In this document: positions 855 to 10,627 of the stretch, one piece after another
Numbering within the stretch: the stretch's first letter is position 1
Layout of the letters: each line of letters opens with the position of its first letter
Assembly (NCBI GenBank): GCA_046045965.1
Contig: JBJOKS010000063.1
Location: 1 to 12,014, forward strand
Length of the DNA stretch: 12,014 nucleotides
From: Cyanobacteriota bacterium
Lineage (GTDB): Bacteria > Cyanobacteriota > Cyanobacteriia > Cyanobacteriales > Nostocaceae
Reading direction: 5' to 3'
The notes under the pieces: model-generated
What the model was told of the DNA's origin: nothing
What the model saw: the letters and a program-made list of their open reading frames with translations, nothing else
Database searches by the model: none
Position numbers and translations under genes: made by a program

Positions 855-942
855 GAACAGGGAACAGGGAATTGGTAATTGGTAATTGGTAATTGTGGGT
901 TATTCATCCTCCCAGTCCCCAGTCCCCAGTCCCCAGTCCCCA
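854..942. repeat. STRR-type heptamer repeat cluster between convergent genes; likely terminator region
   Basis: (GGAACAG)x2 at 854-867, (AATTGGT)x3 plus a partial unit at 870-895, then (CCCCAGT)x~4.5 at 911-942. CCCCAGT is the STRR1 unit of heterocystous cyanobacteria. Confidence 0.9.
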
Positions 943-948
943 AAATAA

Positions 949-3738: not shown

Positions 3739-4377
3739 ATGAAAATTCCTGGATTTCCTGGCAACAAAAGCAAGAAAGCAAAAACGCCAGACCGCAAATC
3801 CAAATCCTTGATTCCCCAGTTGACGCATTGGCATCCTTGGTTGCGTCAAGTTATGGATTGGATAGTCACATCTGGATCGGTACTGTTATGTTTACTAATG
3901 TTGCCAACTCGATTCCCAGGCATGGAATTATTGGGCATTGCACCTAACTGGTTACTAATTTGGGTGGTAGCTTGGAGTGTAAAACGCTCTATACTTGCAG
4001 GTGCAGTGGCAGGTATTATTTTAGGTCTGCTGCAAGATGCTATGACAGCCCCTAACCCTACCCATGCCGTGAGCTTAGGAATCGTAGGAATGCTAACAAG
4101 CCTCATTCAAAAGCAGCGTTTTATCCAAGAAGACTTTATATCTATTGCTTTAATTGTCTTTGGCATGGCAATTTTATCAGATACTATCTTTGCCATGCAA
4201 TTGTCTTTAATGGGTGGTAACTGTGGCGAGCAATGTTTTCGCAAAGTTGAAGACATTTGGACTTACTACCATCGTGTTGCCTTAGCTTCGGCAATTCTTA
4301 GTAGTTTATGGGCCCCTGTACTTTATTATCCCCTAAATCGCTGGTGGCAACAGATGAAATTAATTCATAATTCATAA
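3739..4377 (+). CDS. mreD: Rod shape-determining protein MreD
   Basis: Multi-TM protein with PNWLLIWVVAWS and GIILGLLQD motifs, directly after mreC. Confidence 0.93.
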   Translation: MKIPGFPGNKSKKAKTPDRKSKSLIPQLTHWHPWLRQVMDWIVTSGSVLLCLLMLPTRFPGMELLGIAPNWLLIWVVAWSVKRSILAGAVAGIILGLLQDAMTAPNPTHAVSLGIVGMLTSLIQKQRFIQEDFISIALIVFGMAILSDTIFAMQLSLMGGNCGEQCFRKVEDIWTYYHRVALASAILSSLWAPVLYYPLNRWWQQMKLIHNS

Positions 4378-4395
4378 TTCATAATTCATAATTCG
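4361..4395. repeat. Heptamer tandem repeat (TAATTCA)x4 plus TAATTCG overlapping the mreD stop
   Basis: Units at 4361, 4368, 4375, 4382 and 4389; encodes the last mreD codons (IHNS*). Confidence 0.9.
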
Positions 4396-4398
4396 CAG

Positions 4399-5538
4399 GT
4401 GGAAAATAGGATGTTAAGCCCAGTAACAATATCCTCAAATATGATAGGCAGTGAATTTGACTCCCTGATGATGCAACGGTGTTTGCAACTAGCCCGACGT
4501 GCTTTGGGACGCACTTCACCAAATCCATTAGTGGGGGCTGTGATTGTTAAAAATGGGCAAATTGTGGGAGAGGGGTTCCATCCCCGTGCAGGTGAACCTC
4601 ATGCCGAAGTTTTTGCCCTCAAAGCAGCAGCAGAAAAGGCTCGTGGAGCTACTATTTATGTCAGCCTAGAACCCTGTAACCACTACGGACGCACTCCCCC
4701 CTGTTCAGAAGCCTTGATAGCTGCTGGTGTATCTAAGGTAGTTGTGGGGATGGTTGATCCTAACCCCTTGGTAGCTGGTGGTGGTATTGCTCGTTTACGC
4801 GCAGCGGGAATAGAAGTCCTGGTAGGAGTGGAAGAAGCAGCTTGTCAGCAACTAAATGAAGGTTTTATCCATCGCATTCTCCACAAGCGACCTTTGGGAA
4901 TTTTGAAATATGCTATGACCTTAGATGGCAAAATTGCTACTAATTCCGGTCATAGTGCTTGGATCACAAATCCAGATGCCCGCAGCGAAGTACATCAACT
5001 CAGGGCAGCTTGTGATGCTGTCATTGTTGGTGGAAATACAGTTAGACAGGATAATCCCTACCTCACAACTCATCAGCAGGAAGGACATAATCCTCTGCGG
5101 GTGGTGATGAGTCGCAGCCTGAATTTGCCAGAAAATGCTCGTCTGTGGGAAGTTGTGGAAGCTCCTACTTTGGTGTTAACTCAAGTAGGCAGTTCGCCAG
5201 ATTTTCAAAAGATGTTGCTTAACAAGGGTGTGGAAGTGCAGGAATTTCCGTTACTTACACCAGATCATGTTATGGCTCATCTATATGAGCGCGGTTTTTG
5301 TAGCGTGCTATGGGAATGCGGTGGTACTTTAGCAGCAAGTGCGATCGCTCAAAATGCAGTTCAAAAAATCCTGGCCTTTATCGCTCCCAAAATCATTGGT
5401 GGTACTCATGCTCCTACACCCGTAGGTGACTTAGGTTTTACCTCTATGACCGAAGCTTTGTCTTTAGAACGTGTTCATTGGCGTGTCGTCGGTTCTGACT
5501 GTTTAGTTGAAGGTTATTTACCACAAAAAAGTCATTAG
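4399..5538 (+). CDS. ribD: Bifunctional diaminohydroxyphosphoribosylaminopyrimidine deaminase / reductase
   Basis: TSPNPLVGAV, HAE and LEPCNHYGRTPPC zinc-deaminase motifs; KYAMTLDGKIA, DNPYLT and WECGGTL reductase motifs. Exact start uncertain (GTG 4399 or a downstream ATG). Confidence 0.97.
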   Translation: MENRMLSPVTISSNMIGSEFDSLMMQRCLQLARRALGRTSPNPLVGAVIVKNGQIVGEGFHPRAGEPHAEVFALKAAAEKARGATIYVSLEPCNHYGRTPPCSEALIAAGVSKVVVGMVDPNPLVAGGGIARLRAAGIEVLVGVEEAACQQLNEGFIHRILHKRPLGILKYAMTLDGKIATNSGHSAWITNPDARSEVHQLRAACDAVIVGGNTVRQDNPYLTTHQQEGHNPLRVVMSRSLNLPENARLWEVVEAPTLVLTQVGSSPDFQKMLLNKGVEVQEFPLLTPDHVMAHLYERGFCSVLWECGGTLAASAIAQNAVQKILAFIAPKIIGGTHAPTPVGDLGFTSMTEALSLERVHWRVVGSDCLVEGYLPQKSH

Positions 5539-5667
5539 TCATTAGTCATTAGTCATTAGTCATTAGTCATTAGTCATTGGTAATTGGGTTATTAACCTCC
5601 CCTGCTTCCCCTGCTTCCCCTGCTTCTTTCCCAATACCCAGTCCCCAGTAAAGAGTCCCCAGTCCCC
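5531..5667. repeat. Composite STRR cluster between convergent genes
   Basis: (GTCATTA)x6 plus GTCATTG and GTAATTG at 5531-5586, (CCCCTGCTT)x3 at 5599-5625, degenerate CCCCAGT units at 5630-5667. Confidence 0.92.
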
Positions 5668-5673
5668 AAGACC

Positions 5674-5892
5674 CTATGACTGTTGCCGTTCATAAGCAAG
5701 ATCGCGGATCAGGCTGAGGCGATCGCGGATATAGTCACAAAGAAAATCAGTTTCATCAGGATCTAATAAGGCTTGTTTTGTGGTTTGTTTGGCTAACCAC
5801 TGTACCAAGCTTGCATCGTCCAGCTGCAAAAGGGTTACTGTTTGAGCGGCTTCAACTATAGACCAAAGCTGACGCATAATTGTAGGAGTCAT
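5674..5892 (-). CDS. Small hypothetical protein (72 aa), conserved-cyanobacterial type
   Basis: Amphipathic helical sequence MTPTIMRQLWSIVE...LLQLDDASLVQWL...YIRDRLSLIRDLA; GAGG upstream on the minus strand; fills the gap without overlapping other genes. Confidence 0.8.
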   Translation of the reverse strand: MTPTIMRQLWSIVEAAQTVTLLQLDDASLVQWLAKQTTKQALLDPDETDFLCDYIRDRLSLIRDLAYERQQS

Positions 5893-6481: not shown

Positions 6482-8653
6482 ATGAGTGCAATGGTTGAGT
6501 CTGACAACAGCTTGAACAACCTTGAGGAAATTTGCTCAACTTTAGAGCAGATGGAAATTAGTGCGATCGCTAATTGTTGCTATAACAGTCAATATGGCAA
6601 ACTTCTCCCAGATGCTTTTTACATTCATATTTTGGCACTGCATACCCTTGATATTCAACTTCAGCAGTATGAAAGTTTAGCTCGCAGTGTTGCACCCCAA
6701 GCTGAAAAAGCCACCTTAGTCAAATTTAGCACTAATAAACATAAAATTTCCTACTTATTTTATCCTGATTTTGATACCGACCCTCACCCCGCTTTACATT
6801 CTAGTATTCAAGTTGATGTAGAAAATCTTACTTTTAATTTTAGAGATTATACAGATACAGATAATCCGCCTATTCTCCATCGCAAAGAAACCTTTGTTAC
6901 TCCTGAATATCCCTTTTATGAAGAGTTTGCAGCTTTAACCCGCGATCAAGAAGCGATAGGTTTATTAAATAATACCAGAGGTATTGGGACAAGGTTGGGT
7001 TGGGAAGAAAGGTTAAAAAGATACGGAGTAGAAATACAGGGACATACCTTAATTAAAAAACAAACTAATATTAATGCAGAAGATTTAATACCCAAAATAG
7101 AAAGACACAAAGCTGCTATAATTCGTCATGACTTTTCTAGACCTGTACGTTTAGCTTTAGATGCAGGTTTGTTTTGTCCAGAAACCACCTTTTTTGACTA
7201 TGGTTGTGGACATGGTGGGGATATGAACCGCATCGCTGAACATGGTTATATCAGTAACGGTTGGGACCCTTATTATTTACCGGATGCTCCCCGTATACCT
7301 GCGGATGTTGTCAATATTGGTTTTGTGATTAATGTAATTGAAGATCAAGGAGAACGTCGGGAAGCATTAATAAAAGCTTGGGAACTGACGCAAAAAGTTC
7401 TTTTGGTATCTGCTCAAGTGTTAATATCTGACTCTAAAAAAGGGGTGATGGCCTATGGTGATGGTGTGATTACTAGACGTAACACATTTCAGAAATATTA
7501 TGAACAAGAAGAATTAAAAGTTTACATTGATCAAGTTTTAGAAGTTGATAGTATTCCCATCGCGTTGGGGGTGTATTTTGTTTTTAGAGATCCTGCGGAA
7601 ACCGAATTATTTCGCGCTTCTCGTTATCGTTCTCGCGCTACTACTCCTAAAGTGAGAGCTTGTATTCAAAAGTTTGAAGAACATCGAGAATTGTTAACAC
7701 CGTTAATGGATTTTATGACGGAACGGGGTAGAATACCTGGTAAGGGGGAGTTAGCGCAAGAAGAGGAAATTTGTCAACATTTTAGTAGTTTAAGACGAGC
7801 TTTTCAAGTGATTATTAAAGCTACAGACTCAGAAGAATGGGAAGAAATTGCAGATAAACGTCGTCAAGATTTATTGGTTTACTTAGCATTAACAAAATTC
7901 AGTCATCGTCCTAGATTATCACAACTACCGCCGTCAGTTCAAGAGGATGTTTTAGGATTATATAGTAGTTATAAACAGGCTTGTTTAGATGCAGACCAAA
8001 TGTTAAGGAGTGTGGGAAATACAGAGTTAATTGTGAAACGTTGTCAGGAAAGTAAAATAGGTAAAAAATTACCTAATTCTTTGTGGGTGCATATTTCTGC
8101 ATTACAAGCACTTGATCCTCTATTACGATTATATGAAGGTTGCGCTAGTCGGACAATTGGTAGGTTAGAAGAAGCTAATGTGATTAAATTTCATTTGCAA
8201 ACACCAAAGATTTCTTATTTATTTTATCCTGACTTTGATCATGAACCTCACCCGACATTATATAGATCAATGAAAATTGATTTACGGGATTTGAACGTTA
8301 CCTATAGAGAATATGATATTGATGATGATCCGCCGATTTTACATCAGTTAGAAACTCTAGTAACTCCTGATTATCCTTTGTATGATAAGTTGGTGAAATT
8401 AACGATTCAGGAAGAAGAGAGAGGACTATTTGAAAATTGGCAAAGTATTAGTCATCTTTCAGGGTGGCAGAAATGTTTAAAGGAACATTTTACTGTGATT
8501 AAAGGATATAAATTACATTGGAGCAAGGATGCTGATCCTTATAAGTTGAAGTTGTTTAAAAATGCGATGATTAATCGGAAGAAGGAGAGAGAAAAGGTGA
8601 TGGAAGTGGTGGAAAATGGTGATGTTGTGGGGATAGATGGTGAGGAGAATTAG
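6482..8653 (+). CDS. DNA phosphorothioation-associated putative methyltransferase family protein (TIGR04096-like)
   Basis: IERHKAAIIR, SAM-binding motif I FFDYGCGHGGD, GWDPYY, VVNIGFVINVIE, GDGVITRRNTFQKYY, and two copies of KISYLFYPDFDxxPHPxL...PPILH. Start may be a downstream ATG (6491 or 6551). Confidence 0.82.
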   Translation: MSAMVESDNSLNNLEEICSTLEQMEISAIANCCYNSQYGKLLPDAFYIHILALHTLDIQLQQYESLARSVAPQAEKATLVKFSTNKHKISYLFYPDFDTDPHPALHSSIQVDVENLTFNFRDYTDTDNPPILHRKETFVTPEYPFYEEFAALTRDQEAIGLLNNTRGIGTRLGWEERLKRYGVEIQGHTLIKKQTNINAEDLIPKIERHKAAIIRHDFSRPVRLALDAGLFCPETTFFDYGCGHGGDMNRIAEHGYISNGWDPYYLPDAPRIPADVVNIGFVINVIEDQGERREALIKAWELTQKVLLVSAQVLISDSKKGVMAYGDGVITRRNTFQKYYEQEELKVYIDQVLEVDSIPIALGVYFVFRDPAETELFRASRYRSRATTPKVRACIQKFEEHRELLTPLMDFMTERGRIPGKGELAQEEEICQHFSSLRRAFQVIIKATDSEEWEEIADKRRQDLLVYLALTKFSHRPRLSQLPPSVQEDVLGLYSSYKQACLDADQMLRSVGNTELIVKRCQESKIGKKLPNSLWVHISALQALDPLLRLYEGCASRTIGRLEEANVIKFHLQTPKISYLFYPDFDHEPHPTLYRSMKIDLRDLNVTYREYDIDDDPPILHQLETLVTPDYPLYDKLVKLTIQEEERGLFENWQSISHLSGWQKCLKEHFTVIKGYKLHWSKDADPYKLKLFKNAMINRKKEREKVMEVVENGDVVGIDGEEN

Positions 8654-8686
8654 TTGTTGTTGTAGGGTGTATTATGGTATTTTTTC

Positions 8687-8818
8687 ACAGCTATTGTCAG
8701 GTAAATTAACAACATCTTGATTCAGGTTTCGCGCAAAGGCACAAAGGAGCAAAGACGCAAAGGAAGAAAGGAATTTATTTAGAGTGTGGTCTAAATAAAT
8801 ATAAATGAAAACTGCTGT
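8687..8818. mobile_element. MITE-like element with internal CAAAG repeats
   Basis: Imperfect terminal inverted repeats ACAGCTATTGTCA (8687-8699) and TGAAAACTGCTGT (8806-8818), 10/13 match; internal GCGCAAAGGCACAAAGGAGCAAAGACGCAAAGG at 8731-8763. Confidence 0.55.
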
Positions 8819-8935
8819 TACACTCGGACTCATGTAATAAACAAGTTGCATGATTTTTAATTTAACCTTTATCAAAATTATGAAATTTGTGAAACCGATT
8901 GATGATGAAATAGTTATTCATGGGGAAATTAAAGT

Positions 8936-9259
8936 ATGAGTAAAAACAGTAAACAAGTTTATAATTACACCGTTATTCTGGAAAGGGAAGAAGAGGGAGG
9001 ATATCATGCTTTTTGTCCTCTTTTGAAAGGTTGTCATTCTCAAGAGGATAATTTTGAAGAGGCGATCGCTAATATTCAAGAAGCTATTGAATTATATCTT
9101 GAAAGTTATGATATTCCTGCTCAAATGCAACCTCAAGAAAAAGATATAGAGTCTTTAAGACAAGCTGTTGATAAATTCAGTAATATGTTAGCGGAAAAAG
9201 GAATTAGTGAGGATGATATTATTGCTGATTTTCAAGCATTTAGGAAACGGAGTCAATAA
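8936..9259 (+). CDS. hicB: HicB-family (UPF0150-type) antitoxin domain protein with atypical C-terminal extension
   Basis: YTVILEREEEGGYHAFCPLLKGCHSQEDNFEEAIANIQEAIELYLES matches the HicB N-terminal domain pattern; GGGGA RBS-like sequence upstream; no hicA visible. Confidence 0.75.
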   Translation: MSKNSKQVYNYTVILEREEEGGYHAFCPLLKGCHSQEDNFEEAIANIQEAIELYLESYDIPAQMQPQEKDIESLRQAVDKFSNMLAEKGISEDDIIADFQAFRKRSQ

Positions 9260-9445
9260 TAAGAAAAACAGTGATTAATAAATATTAATAACTGGTTGAT
9301 GATTAATAGGCGATCGCCATCTTGACATCAATAGAAAGTAGGGTACATTAAAAACAAAGTAAAACAGTAAGATACCGAATTTATACTGATGATTTATGAA
9401 GATTATAAATTTTATTATCAATGTTCGCAGAGTATTTTTGTGAAT

Positions 9446-9583
9446 CTAAAATAAAATGATCAAAAGTAACCAACCTATCATAAAAATAGCACCAGGAATT
9501 AAAGCATTTTTCCAATTTTCTCTATTTGTTGGTTGTTGTATTTGTGGTGTTGTTGGAGTATAATTTATAGTAACAGGCTGAAG
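9446..9583 (-). pseudogene. Start-less gene fragment: P/T/Q-rich linker plus one TM helix
   Basis: Open frame LQPVTINYTPTTPQIQQPTNRENWKNALIPGAIFMIGWLLLIILF*, bounded upstream by TAA. Confidence 0.4.
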
Positions 9584-9756
9584 TTACAAATAATAATCAA
9601 CAAAATGTTAATTTTGAATCTGTAGATATAATTGGTAGAATTGCTAATATTAAATTCTGCAAGAAAAAAATTACTATTGAAATAGATACAATTGAAGTTG
9701 ATTTATTAGGGAAAGAACAGTCTTTCAAGAATTTTAATAATTCTGATGACAATTAA
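9574..9756 (+). pseudogene. Start-less gene fragment (60 codons)
   Basis: Open frame QAEVTNNNQQNVNFESVDIIGRIANIKFCKKKITIEIDTIEVDLLGKEQSFKNFNNSDDN* in very AT-rich DNA, with no in-frame ATG. Confidence 0.35.
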
Positions 9757-9848
9757 ACTCATGAATCATTTAAAATCAACATCCTGTAAATCCTTAAATC
9801 CTGGACATCCTGATTCTGACAAATAAAACTCATCAATCATATTTAAAA
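9747..9848. repeat. ATCCT(G) tandem units bracketed by a ~30-bp imperfect direct repeat
   Basis: ATCCT units at 9781, 9790, 9798 and 9807; flanks TGACAATTAAACTCATGAATCATTTAAAA (9747-9775) and TGACAAATAAAACTCATCAATCATATTTAAAA (9817-9848). Confidence 0.7.
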
Positions 9849-9868
9849 GTTGAAATTATTGAAATTAC

Positions 9869-9971
9869 TATAGCGTTTCCCAATCTAGTGAATTACAAAA
9901 TCATCTGCGTCTATCTGCGTCAATCTGCGTTTTATTACTGCTTCTAGCTCACTTGAGTGGTAATTGCTATA
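9869..9971. mobile_element. 103-bp MITE-like element with TATAGC...GCTATA ends
   Basis: 23-bp terminal inverted repeats (9869-9891 and 9949-9971), 18/23 match, TA at both extremes; internal (ATCTGCGTnn)x3 at 9903-9932. Confidence 0.75.
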
Positions 9972-9999
9972 TTGAAAAATGGTTTTACTCCTGACTCCT

Positions 10000-10028
10000 G
10001 TACGGGTTTAGCATTGCTAAACCCCTAC
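10000..10028 (-). repeat. GTAG-type REP-like palindrome
   Basis: Minus strand reads GTAGGGGTTTAGCAATGCTAAACCCGTAC; 13 of 14 positions pair around the centre; adjoins a short (ACTCCTG)x2 repeat. Confidence 0.8.
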
Positions 10029-10627
10029 TCTATCCTACTATAAATCTCCTTCGCCAACTTCACCCAATGTTCAATCCCCTTCTTCGTCGGTTGTCTCACA
10101 TCCCCAAAAGTCCAAATATCCCGTTTATGCTGCGGTCCATAACTAATATGAATCGGTCTGGTGCTACCATAAAAATACAAAGAATCAAAAGGTAACTTAT
10201 GCTGTAAAATCCAATCCACTAAACTTTCACTAGGTAAATCTGCAATCATAAAATCACAAGCTGCACCCAACCTTTCACAATAATATTTACCATTCTTATT
10301 AATTTCATAACTAATATGTTGATCTAACTTAGGTGCAACCCGACCATTTTTTTCTCCCGTCAACGGATCTTTCTTTTCTAAATACTTCTTTAAATCAGCA
10401 GAACAAAAACCATAAGTTAAAATAAATTTGTCTCTGCCGTAATTATCAATAACAGGATCAATAATCAACTTATTTAAATCTTGTAAAGCCGGAATAGTTT
10501 CTATAATATTTTGAGGAAATGGATGAATATTTTGAGCATATTTATGATAAGTCTGAGTGCAGGTACAAAATTCTGCTAATGTCAGGTATTTACCTAGTTT
10601 GAATTCTTGCATATTCATTGATAGCAC
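10025..10627 (-). CDS. Hypothetical protein with peptidase M15/LAS (Hedgehog/DD-peptidase)-like motif order
   Basis: LGKYLTLAEF...IIDPVIDNYG...LTYGFCS...DQH...GAACDF...PFDSLYFY...IHIS parallels the M15A pattern F-T-L-x-E...L-x-P...TSGYR...SQH..GxAxD...FDQL...HxS. No signal peptide. Confidence 0.65.
   Translation of the reverse strand: MLSMNMQEFKLGKYLTLAEFCTCTQTYHKYAQNIHPFPQNIIETIPALQDLNKLIIDPVIDNYGRDKFILTYGFCSADLKKYLEKKDPLTGEKNGRVAPKLDQHISYEINKNGKYYCERLGAACDFMIADLPSESLVDWILQHKLPFDSLYFYGSTRPIHISYGPQHKRDIWTFGDVRQPTKKGIEHWVKLAKEIYSRIE

What the first reader, a model, noticed from the sequence alone, without database searches (positions are those of the whole stretch)
6482..10627. Candidate two-gene module: dnd-associated-type methyltransferase plus atypical M15/LAS zinc enzyme, with no dnd genes nearby
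Seen: a 723-aa SAM-binding protein and a convergent 200-aa signal-less protein with LAS-type H...D...H motif order, separated only by MITEs, fragments and an orphan hicB. Known: the TIGR04096 family is linked to DNA phosphorothioation (dnd) loci and I know of no defined substrate. My unverified recollection is that the TYGF...LDQH...RLGAA.DF...FD.LYFYG...PIH.S domain occurs fused or adjacent to the YPDFD.DPHP/PPILHRKE domain in other bacteria. Inference: the two are a functionally coupled, uncharacterised nucleic-acid modification or defence module, here split into two genes and sitting beside core genes rather than in a dnd island.
Basis: partly seen in the sequence, partly recalled or inferred. 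Interest (0 to 1): 0.75.

Follow-up and report, generated by a model that had tools for sequence, protein, structure and literature searches.

The report
DNA-sulfur partner: methyltransferase plus zinc enzyme
Two facing genes in this cyanobacterium, a methyltransferase and a protein with a predicted zinc-enzyme fold, are fused or side by side in many other bacteria and keep company with systems that put sulfur into the DNA backbone, so they are a likely, still untested, tool for handling or removing that sulfur mark.

Summary
Observation confirmed. The 723-aa gene is TIGR04096 (863 bits): a class I methyltransferase between two copies of an unassigned 'HRKE' domain. The convergent 200-aa protein has no family model but folds like zinc DD-peptidase/hedgehog (Z 10.3); it keeps the His-Asp-His ligands and has lost the peptidase Arg and Ser. 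The link is real: fused in 119 of 120 longer homologues examined, convergent neighbours in 42 of 53 cyanobacterial loci, tandem or divergent elsewhere, and all 47 surveyed genomes with a full zinc gene have the methyltransferase. 'No dnd nearby' holds only locally: the host has dndCDE on another contig (14, 15, 23), and the family follows both Dnd and Ssp phosphorothioation systems. 'Split' is doubtful; the stand-alone form is the more diverse. Best guess (0.3): S-methylation of phosphorothioate followed by zinc-dependent hydrolysis, i.e. the unidentified enzyme route for removing or recycling the mark. No substrate is shown; the complex predictor was unavailable. No paper on the pair found in the searches run. 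The scan noted the fused form earlier in another genome.

The parts
6482..8653 (+). Long-form TIGR04096 'DNA phosphorothioation-associated putative methyltransferase', 723 aa
   Evidence: model pLDDT 91.6 (87)
6554..7057 (+). N-terminal 'HRKE' domain (residues about 25-192) with the intact NPPILHRKE motif; no family or fold assigned
   Evidence: (N-P-P, H-R-K-E invariant in 71 rows that were selected for HRKE)
7088..7597 (+). Class I SAM-dependent methyltransferase domain (residues about 203-372); motif I DYGCGxG; motif IV region NxGFVINVIED, no (D/N/S)PP(Y/F/W)
7634..8011 (+). All-helical linker region (residues about 385-510), unassigned
   Evidence: DSSP of model
8009..8521 (+). C-terminal second copy of the HRKE domain, 43% identical to the first, motif degenerate here (HQLE)
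8712..8796 (.). Short dispersed repeat, up to 36 matches in the genome; not part of the module
8936..9259 (+). HicB-like antitoxin gene inserted between the pair; not conserved there in most relatives
   Evidence: gap of 300 bp or less in 28 of 42 loci
9747..10024 (.). Cluster of short dispersed repeats, up to 165 matches in the genome; not part of the module
10025..10627 (-). M15/LAS-fold predicted zinc protein, 200 aa (197 from ATG 10618); predicted ligands H104 (10316-10318), D125 (10253-10255), H160 (10148-10150); family-invariant D102, Q103, C117, G121 and near-invariant E108, D148, Y153, S162

Best explanation
The two genes form a conserved accessory module of DNA phosphorothioation (the host's dndCDE genes lie on another contig), and the module likely acts on the phosphorothioate sulfur itself: the methyltransferase would S-methylate the linkage and the predicted zinc protein would then hydrolyse the activated product, removing the sulfur. 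Shown here: domain make-up, folds of the models, the four gene arrangements (fused, convergent, tandem, divergent), co-occurrence with Dnd and Ssp synthesis genes, absence of DNA-base methyltransferase and DD-peptidase catalytic motifs. Inferred: that SAM and zinc are bound; that the intact HRKE domain binds the substrate; that the substrate is the sulfur, either in chromosomal DNA (an eraser) or in the nuclease-resistant phosphorothioate di- and oligonucleotides left by DNA turnover (salvage); that the products are a normal phosphate and methanethiol. Where the zinc protein is missing, the methylated linkage would have to decay spontaneously or be handled by general repair. Odds: linked to phosphorothioation about 0.9; zinc protein functionally coupled to the methyltransferase about 0.85; this chemistry about 0.3.
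For: Coupling: 119 of the 120 listed longer homologues (252 found) carry the methyltransferase, 118 with the zinc domain at the C-terminus; 42 of 53 cyanobacterial loci have the gene convergent within 4 kb; tandem inside an sspBCD operon in L157; first gene of an sspBC operon and divergent from the methyltransferase in a Pseudanabaena plasmid; 47 of 47 genomes with a full-length zinc gene have the methyltransferase, 45 the long form. Link to sulfur: 88 of 89 dndC genomes have the methyltransferase; 17 of 26 short-form copies lie within 15 kb of dndC, directly after dndE in the three loci read; 17 of 25 fused metagenome loci of 9 kb or more hold a dnd or ssp gene and 4 of the other 8 a cysteine desulfurase, against 4.3% and 3.0% of genomes for dndCD and sspBCD (PMC12914056, passage). 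Dnd and Ssp mark different sequences (5'-GAAC/GTTC and 5'-CCA in PMC6435447, passage; assignment of CCA to Ssp recalled), so the shared feature is the sulfur, not a sequence. Methyltransferase: the 50 best structural neighbours are mostly small-molecule and heteroatom methyltransferases, including TehB, a halogen methyltransferase, bacillithiol methyltransferase NmbA and DhpI (Z 11-14, tied), and 0 of 150 rows have the amino-methyltransferase motif. Zinc protein: ligands kept in 80, 79 and 79 of 80 stand-alone and 63 of 63 fused rows, with an invariant set of its own. Literature: phosphorothioates turn over at 2% per hour, nuclease digestion leaves phosphorothioate dinucleotides, and enzyme-mediated removal is named as an open possibility with no enzyme known (PMC6435447, passages). 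That the sulfur is readily alkylated and the triester labile is recalled chemistry.
Against: No activity, substrate or binding is shown. Structural neighbours at Z 11-14 are tied and include RNA and protein methyltransferases (METTL6, Trm9, Hen1, RsmC), so they do not fix the atom methylated. The zinc gene was not found in 30 of 76 long-form and 24 of 26 short-form cases (five near-complete genomes rechecked without a hit, 123, a search with no positive control). The methyltransferase domains are acidic (pI 5.6-6.1), which does not suggest binding to long DNA. With Arg and Ser gone, the zinc site may be a non-catalytic binding site. Two plasmid copies of the zinc gene have no annotated partner within 8 kb (annotation only). 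One genome (G271) has both genes but only the DndD paralogue. Convergent genes cannot share a transcript. Cyanobacterial co-occurrence is largely shared descent. I know of no report of S-methylated phosphorothioate in bacterial DNA (recall; one search found no paper).
Confidence: 0.3

Rival explanations
1. A reversible regulatory pair: the methyltransferase methylates a protein or a small sulfur compound of the phosphorothioation pathway (for example a carboxylate or cysteine of DndC/SspD or the desulfurase, or released sulfide), and the zinc protein reverses or trims that mark, by analogy with methyltransferase/methylesterase pairs.
For: Small-molecule-type fold neighbours and acidic surface; cysteine desulfurase is the commonest immediate neighbour of the fused gene (5 of 85 neighbours scanned, 128; also 60); works in trans; the LAS fold cleaves amide bonds in its known members.
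Against: Dnd and Ssp share only distant PAPS-reductase-like and desulfurase proteins; the large unassigned HRKE domain with invariant basic residues suggests a phosphate-bearing ligand (inference); no binding data.
Confidence: 0.22
2. A second nucleic-acid mark: the enzyme methylates a base or ribose near phosphorothioate sites (or a tRNA/RNA), and the zinc protein is a non-catalytic reader whose open zinc site binds the sulfur, as hedgehog uses its LAS site for binding.
For: METTL6, Trm9, Hen1 and RsmC are among the tied structural neighbours; operonic position right after dndE; loss of the hydrolase Arg and Ser (72, 130); hedgehog is the second-best fold match; a 485-kb phage record encodes a stand-alone HRKE domain 0.4 kb from a related methyltransferase-like ORF (the second by eye).
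Against: No amino- or C5-methyltransferase motif; no DNA methyltransferase among the 50 rows shown (the list is not exhaustive); the invariant D102, Q103, E108, C117, D148 look like more than a binding surface (inference).
Confidence: 0.2
3. A phosphorothioate-dependent anti-phage or anti-plasmid effector that stands in for DndFGH, which this lineage lacks.
For: Outside cyanobacteria the fused gene sits in mobile defence islands with sspE, sspFGH, dndFGH, integrases and WYL genes; dndFGH is absent from Nostocales (PMC8569181, passage; single DndF, DndH and Ssp queries found nothing in this genome).
Against: It often sits beside complete restriction modules rather than replacing them; it is near-universal and single-copy in this family (36 of 37 genomes) and fixed next to ribD-mreBCD; the host dnd cluster already holds a sulfur-binding/HNH-like nuclease (23, below the model cut-off); no PADLOC model matches; no nuclease or toxin domain recognised.
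Confidence: 0.15
4. The small protein is an ordinary cell-wall M15 peptidase and its place beside the methyltransferase is chance.
For: Best fold match is the zinc DD-peptidase 1LBU; mreBCD lie 3-8 kb away; UniRef and NCBI name some homologues 'Peptidase M15A'.
Against: Fusion to a cytoplasmic methyltransferase; four arrangements with the same partner; no Pfam M15 match in 80 of 80 members; Arg in 1 of 80 and Asp for Ser in 80 of 80; no export signal; the host has a separate canonical Peptidase_M15_3; mreBCD linkage is confined to this family's loci.
Confidence: 0.03

Closest known systems
NCBIfam TIGR04096 dnd_rel_methyl (DNA phosphorothioation-associated putative methyltransferase)
   Same: Full match over residues 205-680, 863 bits; same association with dnd genes at family level.
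   Different: The model is the short form. This protein has an extra N-terminal copy of the C-terminal domain, in which the conserved motif survives; it lies away from the dnd operon; the zinc-domain partner and the Ssp association are not part of the family name; no function found in print.
Peptidase M15A / LAS zinc enzymes (Streptomyces Zn DD-peptidase 1LBU, Ply500, VanX/VanY) and hedgehog N-domain
   Same: Fold (Z 10.3, rmsd 2.9 A over 124 residues for 1LBU; 4.3-5.5 for the others) and His-Asp-His ligand order.
   Different: 15% identity; no Pfam match; a 14-residue insertion between the first two ligands with invariant Glu, Cys, Gly; GYR Arg and SxH Ser replaced; no export signal or wall-binding domain; fused to or beside a methyltransferase.
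Dnd and Ssp phosphorothioation systems (DndABCDE-FGH, SspABCD-E, SspFGH)
   Same: Host encodes DndC, DndD, DndE, a DGQHR protein, dnd_assoc_4, a DndD paralogue and a sulfur-binding/HNH-like nuclease; homologues of the pair lie inside or beside both kinds of operon.
   Different: Neither protein is a described component, and neither matches a PADLOC model; here they are on another contig beside core genes.
Heteroatom methyltransferases (TehB, halogen methyltransferase, bacillithiol methyltransferase NmbA, DhpI, Trm9, Hen1, METTL6)
   Same: Compact class I Rossmann domain, Z 11-14.
   Different: 10-20% identity; carried in a four-part protein with unassigned flanking domains; substrate unknown.

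Membership tests
TIGR04096 | HMM score above the curated cut-off | tested here: met
   863 bits against 150
TIGR04096 | Occurs with phosphorothioation genes | tested here: met
   dndC, dndD, dndE over cut-off on contig C21 of the host, not adjacent
Class I SAM-dependent methyltransferases | Rossmann-type fold with motif I DxGxGxG | tested here: met
   model and fold searches; D239, G241, G243, G245 invariant in 150 rows
Class I SAM-dependent methyltransferases | SAM binding and methyl transfer | not testable with these tools
   needs an assay
N6-adenine / N4-cytosine DNA methyltransferases | (D/N/S)PP(Y/F/W) catalytic motif (definition recalled; NPP(Y/F) also in PMC5512222 passage) | tested here: not met
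   0 of 150 rows in the methyltransferase domain; motif IV region is NxG(F/Y)VxNVIE
C5-cytosine DNA methyltransferases | Conserved Pro-Cys catalytic motif (recalled) | tested here: not met
   any PC in only 5 of 150 rows
Peptidase M15A (PF08291) | Pfam match | tested here: not met
   none for the window protein at E 0.1 (6) or for 80 of 80 members at E 0.01 (40); the family search finds only another gene in the host
Peptidase M15A / LAS enzymes | Hedgehog/DD-peptidase fold | tested here: met
   pLDDT 93.9 (47); 1LBU Z 10.3, next unrelated row 4.5 (64); Foldseek alone gave only E 1.2 (56)
Peptidase M15A / LAS enzymes | His, Asp, His zinc ligands in order | tested here: met
Peptidase M15A / LAS enzymes | Substrate-binding Arg of G(Y/F)R and Ser of SxH (roles recalled) | tested here: not met
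   aligned to the host's canonical enzyme: Arg in 1 of 80, Asp instead of Ser in 80 of 80 (130)
Peptidase M15A / LAS enzymes | Export signal or peptidoglycan-binding domain | tested here: not met
   hydrophobicity proxy 1 of 80 (104); no Pfam domain (40); many homologues are C-terminal domains of the methyltransferase
Peptidase M15A / LAS enzymes | Zinc binding and peptide hydrolysis | not testable with these tools
   needs an assay
Described anti-phage systems (PADLOC 2.0) | Match to a component model | tested here: not met
   no match for either protein at E 1 (8)
Any known fold, for the repeated HRKE domain | Structural or profile match | tested here: inconclusive
   fold lists were filled by the methyltransferase domain (92, 100, 114); the domain was not folded alone; profile searches gave nothing significant
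MITE | High copy number, terminal inverted repeats, target duplication | tested here: inconclusive
   copy number 36-165 (78); ends not analysed

The most novel reading that the evidence does not exclude
Probability: 0.15. Interest if true: 0.9.

Novelty: new variant of a known kind. Interest (0 to 1): 0.62.

Why it matters
Phosphorothioation is the one known backbone modification of DNA; its writers and restriction partners are studied, but whether an enzyme removes or recycles the sulfur is an open question in the review literature (PMC6435447). This module is a near-constant companion of the Dnd genes in this cyanobacterial order and also follows Ssp systems, yet no paper on it was found. 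It supplies two purifiable proteins, defined residues to mutate and synthetic substrates, so the question becomes directly testable. It also adds a cytoplasmic, apparently non-peptidoglycan branch to the LAS zinc fold and an unassigned domain with an invariant HRKE motif.

Tried and rejected
Complex prediction of the pair was not available, so binding is untested. Pfam, NCBIfam, PADLOC and PHROGs gave nothing significant for the small protein; PDB sequence searches gave nothing for it and only motif I for the methyltransferase; Foldseek gave no significant match for it. The HRKE domain: no usable ESM Atlas hit, only own-family clusters for a fused protein, no PDB, PHROG or sulfur-binding-domain match; a likeness of NPPILHRKE to the kinase loop (E 0.16) was set aside because the preceding segment is a strand in the model and the E-value is not significant. 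An idea that HIT hydrolases are regular partners found only 2 of 85 neighbours scanned (85 of 134 listed). Expression: contigs of four metatranscriptome runs cover parts of both genes, some without a mismatch, but also non-coding DNA, so transcription is not shown. A scan of viral contigs with the zinc-protein alignment could not be run. 'Seven genomes have the zinc gene without dndC' (30) was an artefact of the model cut-off and broken assemblies: three have a short DndC beside the methyltransferase, one SspD, two DndD; one has only the DndD paralogue. The tree is a quick one with a midpoint root, the careful search unfinished and no clade test run. Literature searches: exact family name, 1 paper, a table entry; TIGR04096, 0; combinations in 38, 70, 98, 101, 103, 125, 129 listed no paper on the pair. 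Seen as passages only: PMC8416521, PMC12914056, PMC8569181, PMC6435447, and, without relevance, PMC12704722 and PMC5512222; the other papers as search listings only. No supplements were read; the cyanobacterial dnd maps of PMC8569181 and the neighbourhood tables of PMC12914056 may show the methyltransferase. Subscription papers are not covered.


Full report
Setting. The window is the first 12 kb of contig C63 of a 5.3-Mb genome; its closest related loci are from Nostocales cyanobacteria. Left of the finding lie ssb, mreB, mreC, mreD, ribD and a 72-aa ORF (names from the sequences), a block that recurs around relatives: the 72-aa ORF in 27, ribD in 26 and mreD in 25 of 53 loci.

Both ORFs are as described, face each other 1371 bp apart, and are under purifying selection. 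The spacer holds a HicB-like gene and short high-copy repeats; it is a local expansion, since the gap is 300 bp or less in 28 of 42 related loci.

The large protein. It matches TIGR04096 at 863 bits over residues 205-680 and a second time at its N-terminus. The model (pLDDT 91.6) has four parts: domain A (about 25-192), a class I methyltransferase (203-372), a helical linker, and domain A' (510-680), 43% identical to A. The motif NPPILHRKE is almost invariant in A of 150 long and fused proteins and decayed in A'; in the three short-form proteins read, which have a single C-terminal copy, it is intact there. One working copy seems always to be kept, which points to a functional site; its fold is unassigned. 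The methyltransferase lacks the amino-methyltransferase motif in 150 of 150 rows, and its structural neighbours are mostly small-molecule and heteroatom methyltransferases, with some RNA enzymes, all tied at Z 11-14.

The small protein. No family model matches it, but it has 818 similar-length homologues and 340 representatives at 50% identity. Its model (pLDDT 93.9) matches the zinc DD-peptidase 1LBU at Z 10.3, followed by hedgehog, Ply500 and VanX-type enzymes. H104, D125 and H160 are kept in 80, 79 and 79 of 80 diverse members. Against the host's own canonical M15 peptidase, the Arg of GYR is present in 1 of 80 and the Ser of SxH is Asp in 80 of 80. The residue two before the last His is Pro in 74 of 80, but the host's canonical enzyme has no His there either, so that point carries little weight. 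The family has its own invariant residues (D102, Q103, C117, G121; E108 and D148 in 79 of 80) and no export signal by a hydrophobicity proxy. It works like a LAS zinc site; it fails membership of the wall peptidases.

The two belong together. Of 252 longer homologues, 120 were listed; 119 carry methyltransferase sequence, 110 over more than 500 residues, 118 with the zinc domain at the C-terminus; the named ones are mostly Proteobacteria. In 42 of 53 cyanobacterial loci the methyltransferase is the convergent neighbour; one of the 11 misses has under 0.5 kb of flank and two are frameshifted. Other arrangements: directly upstream and co-directional between sspD and the methyltransferase (L157), and first gene of an sspBC operon, divergent from the methyltransferase. 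Of 10 plasmid records with the domain, three are fusions, two have a whole methyltransferase beside it, one overlaps a gene that begins like domain A (by eye), one lies in an ssp-like locus with no methyltransferase within 10 kb, two have no annotated partner and one was not inspected.

Phylum survey, 301 genomes. The methyltransferase passes the cut-off in 103 (36 of 37 have a match in the host's family), DndC in 89, and the zinc gene matches in 52. For the table I kept the 47 genomes with full-length zinc matches (five weak or partial ones dropped, of which one has no listed methyltransferase match) and 102 methyltransferase copies of 450 aa or more (two broken or partial dropped). All 47 have the methyltransferase, 45 the long form; 88 of 89 dndC genomes have it. 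Short forms lie within 15 kb of dndC in 17 of 26 cases and have a zinc gene in the genome in 2; long forms lie near a cut-off dndC in 1 of 76 and have a zinc gene in 46, adjacent in 23. In the loci read, the short form follows dndE directly, and some long forms sit beside a shorter DndC or sspBCD that the model misses, so 1 of 76 is an undercount. After rechecking, 46 of the 47 have dndC, dndD or sspD. These genomes are kin, so the counts are not independent events. The dependence is one-way: the zinc gene was not seen without the methyltransferase, but the methyltransferase often lacks it.

Tie to phosphorothioation. The host has, on contig C21, a DndD paralogue, dnd_assoc_4, a sulfur-binding/HNH-like nuclease, a DGQHR protein, dndC, dndD and dndE; single DndF, DndH and Ssp queries found nothing, in line with the reported lack of dndFGH in Nostocales (PMC8569181, passage). 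Among 64 metagenome loci, 25 were 9 kb or longer with a fused gene; 17 hold a dnd or ssp gene (one only through a DndH-like ATPase) and four more a cysteine desulfurase. Named examples agree: upstream of dndBCDE in Pseudoalteromonas, near ssp-type genes in Methylibium and Synechocystis, after dndE in Rhodococcus (PMC8416521, table passage); two plasmid fusions have no such neighbour.

Split or fused? In a quick tree of 89 zinc domains the cyanobacterial proteins fall in a supported group of 14 stand-alone rows, and all 27 fused domains sit in one weakly supported group among 53 stand-alone relatives. This fits a fusion in one lineage better than a split here, but the root is arbitrary and no clade test was run.

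How it most likely works. What Dnd and Ssp DNA share is the sulfur. A heteroatom-type methyltransferase that follows both, with a zinc protein that depends on it, is most simply read as acting on that sulfur: S-methylation would make a labile triester (recalled chemistry) and a zinc site would hydrolyse it to phosphate and methanethiol, either in the chromosome or in the nuclease-resistant dinucleotides that DNA breakdown leaves. Phosphorothioates turn over at 2% per hour and enzyme-mediated removal is stated as an open possibility (PMC6435447, passages). Every chemical step is inference; I give it 0.3, against reversible methylation of a pathway protein or small sulfur compound (0.22), a second nucleic-acid mark with a zinc reader (0.2), a defence effector (0.15) and an ordinary wall peptidase (0.03). 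Binding between the two proteins is untested.

Novelty. The methyltransferase is a named but uncharacterised family; searches found one table mention and no paper on its function or on the zinc partner (open-access library only, no supplements read). What this window adds is the stand-alone zinc gene, its one-way dependence on the long form, the two forms of the methyltransferase, and the near-core status in this order. Verdict: a real, undescribed accessory module of a known kind of system; interest 0.62.

Noticed in passing
L007:8757-19999 and L008:267-665 (G000:C21): Host dnd cluster: DndD paralogue, S-layer-domain protein, dnd_assoc_4, sulfur-binding/HNH-like nuclease (125 bits, under the 180 cut-off), DGQHR protein, dndC, dndD, dndE; no DndFGH found with single queries.
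   Followed up: partly
L147:6001-6573 and 7015-7692 (phage record LR745208.1, 485 kb): A jumbo phage encodes a stand-alone HRKE domain and, 0.4 kb downstream, an ORF with motifs like this methyltransferase family; further stand-alone or partial HRKE domains occur in viral contigs L154, L155, L158, L159 and on a Microbulbifer plasmid (L148).
   Followed up: partly
L036, L041, L045, L053, L060, L140: Some Oscillatoriales-type proteins of 775-999 aa carry a further, degenerate methyltransferase or linker segment in front of domain A.
   Followed up: no
L136:11302-12504, L138:6698-7927: A short (about 400 aa) DndC variant, 27-29% identical to the host DndC and missed by TIGR03183 at the threshold used, sits head-to-head with the long methyltransferase; dnd surveys that rely on the model may undercount.
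   Followed up: partly
L136 and L137 (G247:C12): One genome has two complete methyltransferase plus zinc-gene pairs, one beside dnd genes and one beside sspBCD.
   Followed up: partly
L072, L076, L079, L082, L119, L129, L150, L157: A recurring three-gene set (helicase, MORC-like ATPase, PLD-domain protein) lies with sspBCD and the methyltransferase; PADLOC gives only partial matches, so it may be an Ssp-linked effector.
   Followed up: no
L078, L089, L091, L094: A roughly 1500-aa protein with weak SspC likeness lies directly upstream of the fused gene in four loci.
   Followed up: no
G297: Both dndC and the methyltransferase carry internal stops in this genome; general genome decay was not excluded.
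   Followed up: no
window 5674-5892 (-): Unannotated 72-aa ORF conserved next to ribD in 27 of 53 related loci; no Pfam or NCBIfam match.
   Followed up: no
window 857-943, 4363-4390, 5530-5669: Heptamer tandem repeats in intergenic regions, typical of heterocyst-forming cyanobacteria (recalled).
   Followed up: no
P0121/P0242 (425-434 aa): The zinc domain is also fused behind an unrelated N-terminal region of about 240 residues with no NCBIfam match.
   Followed up: no
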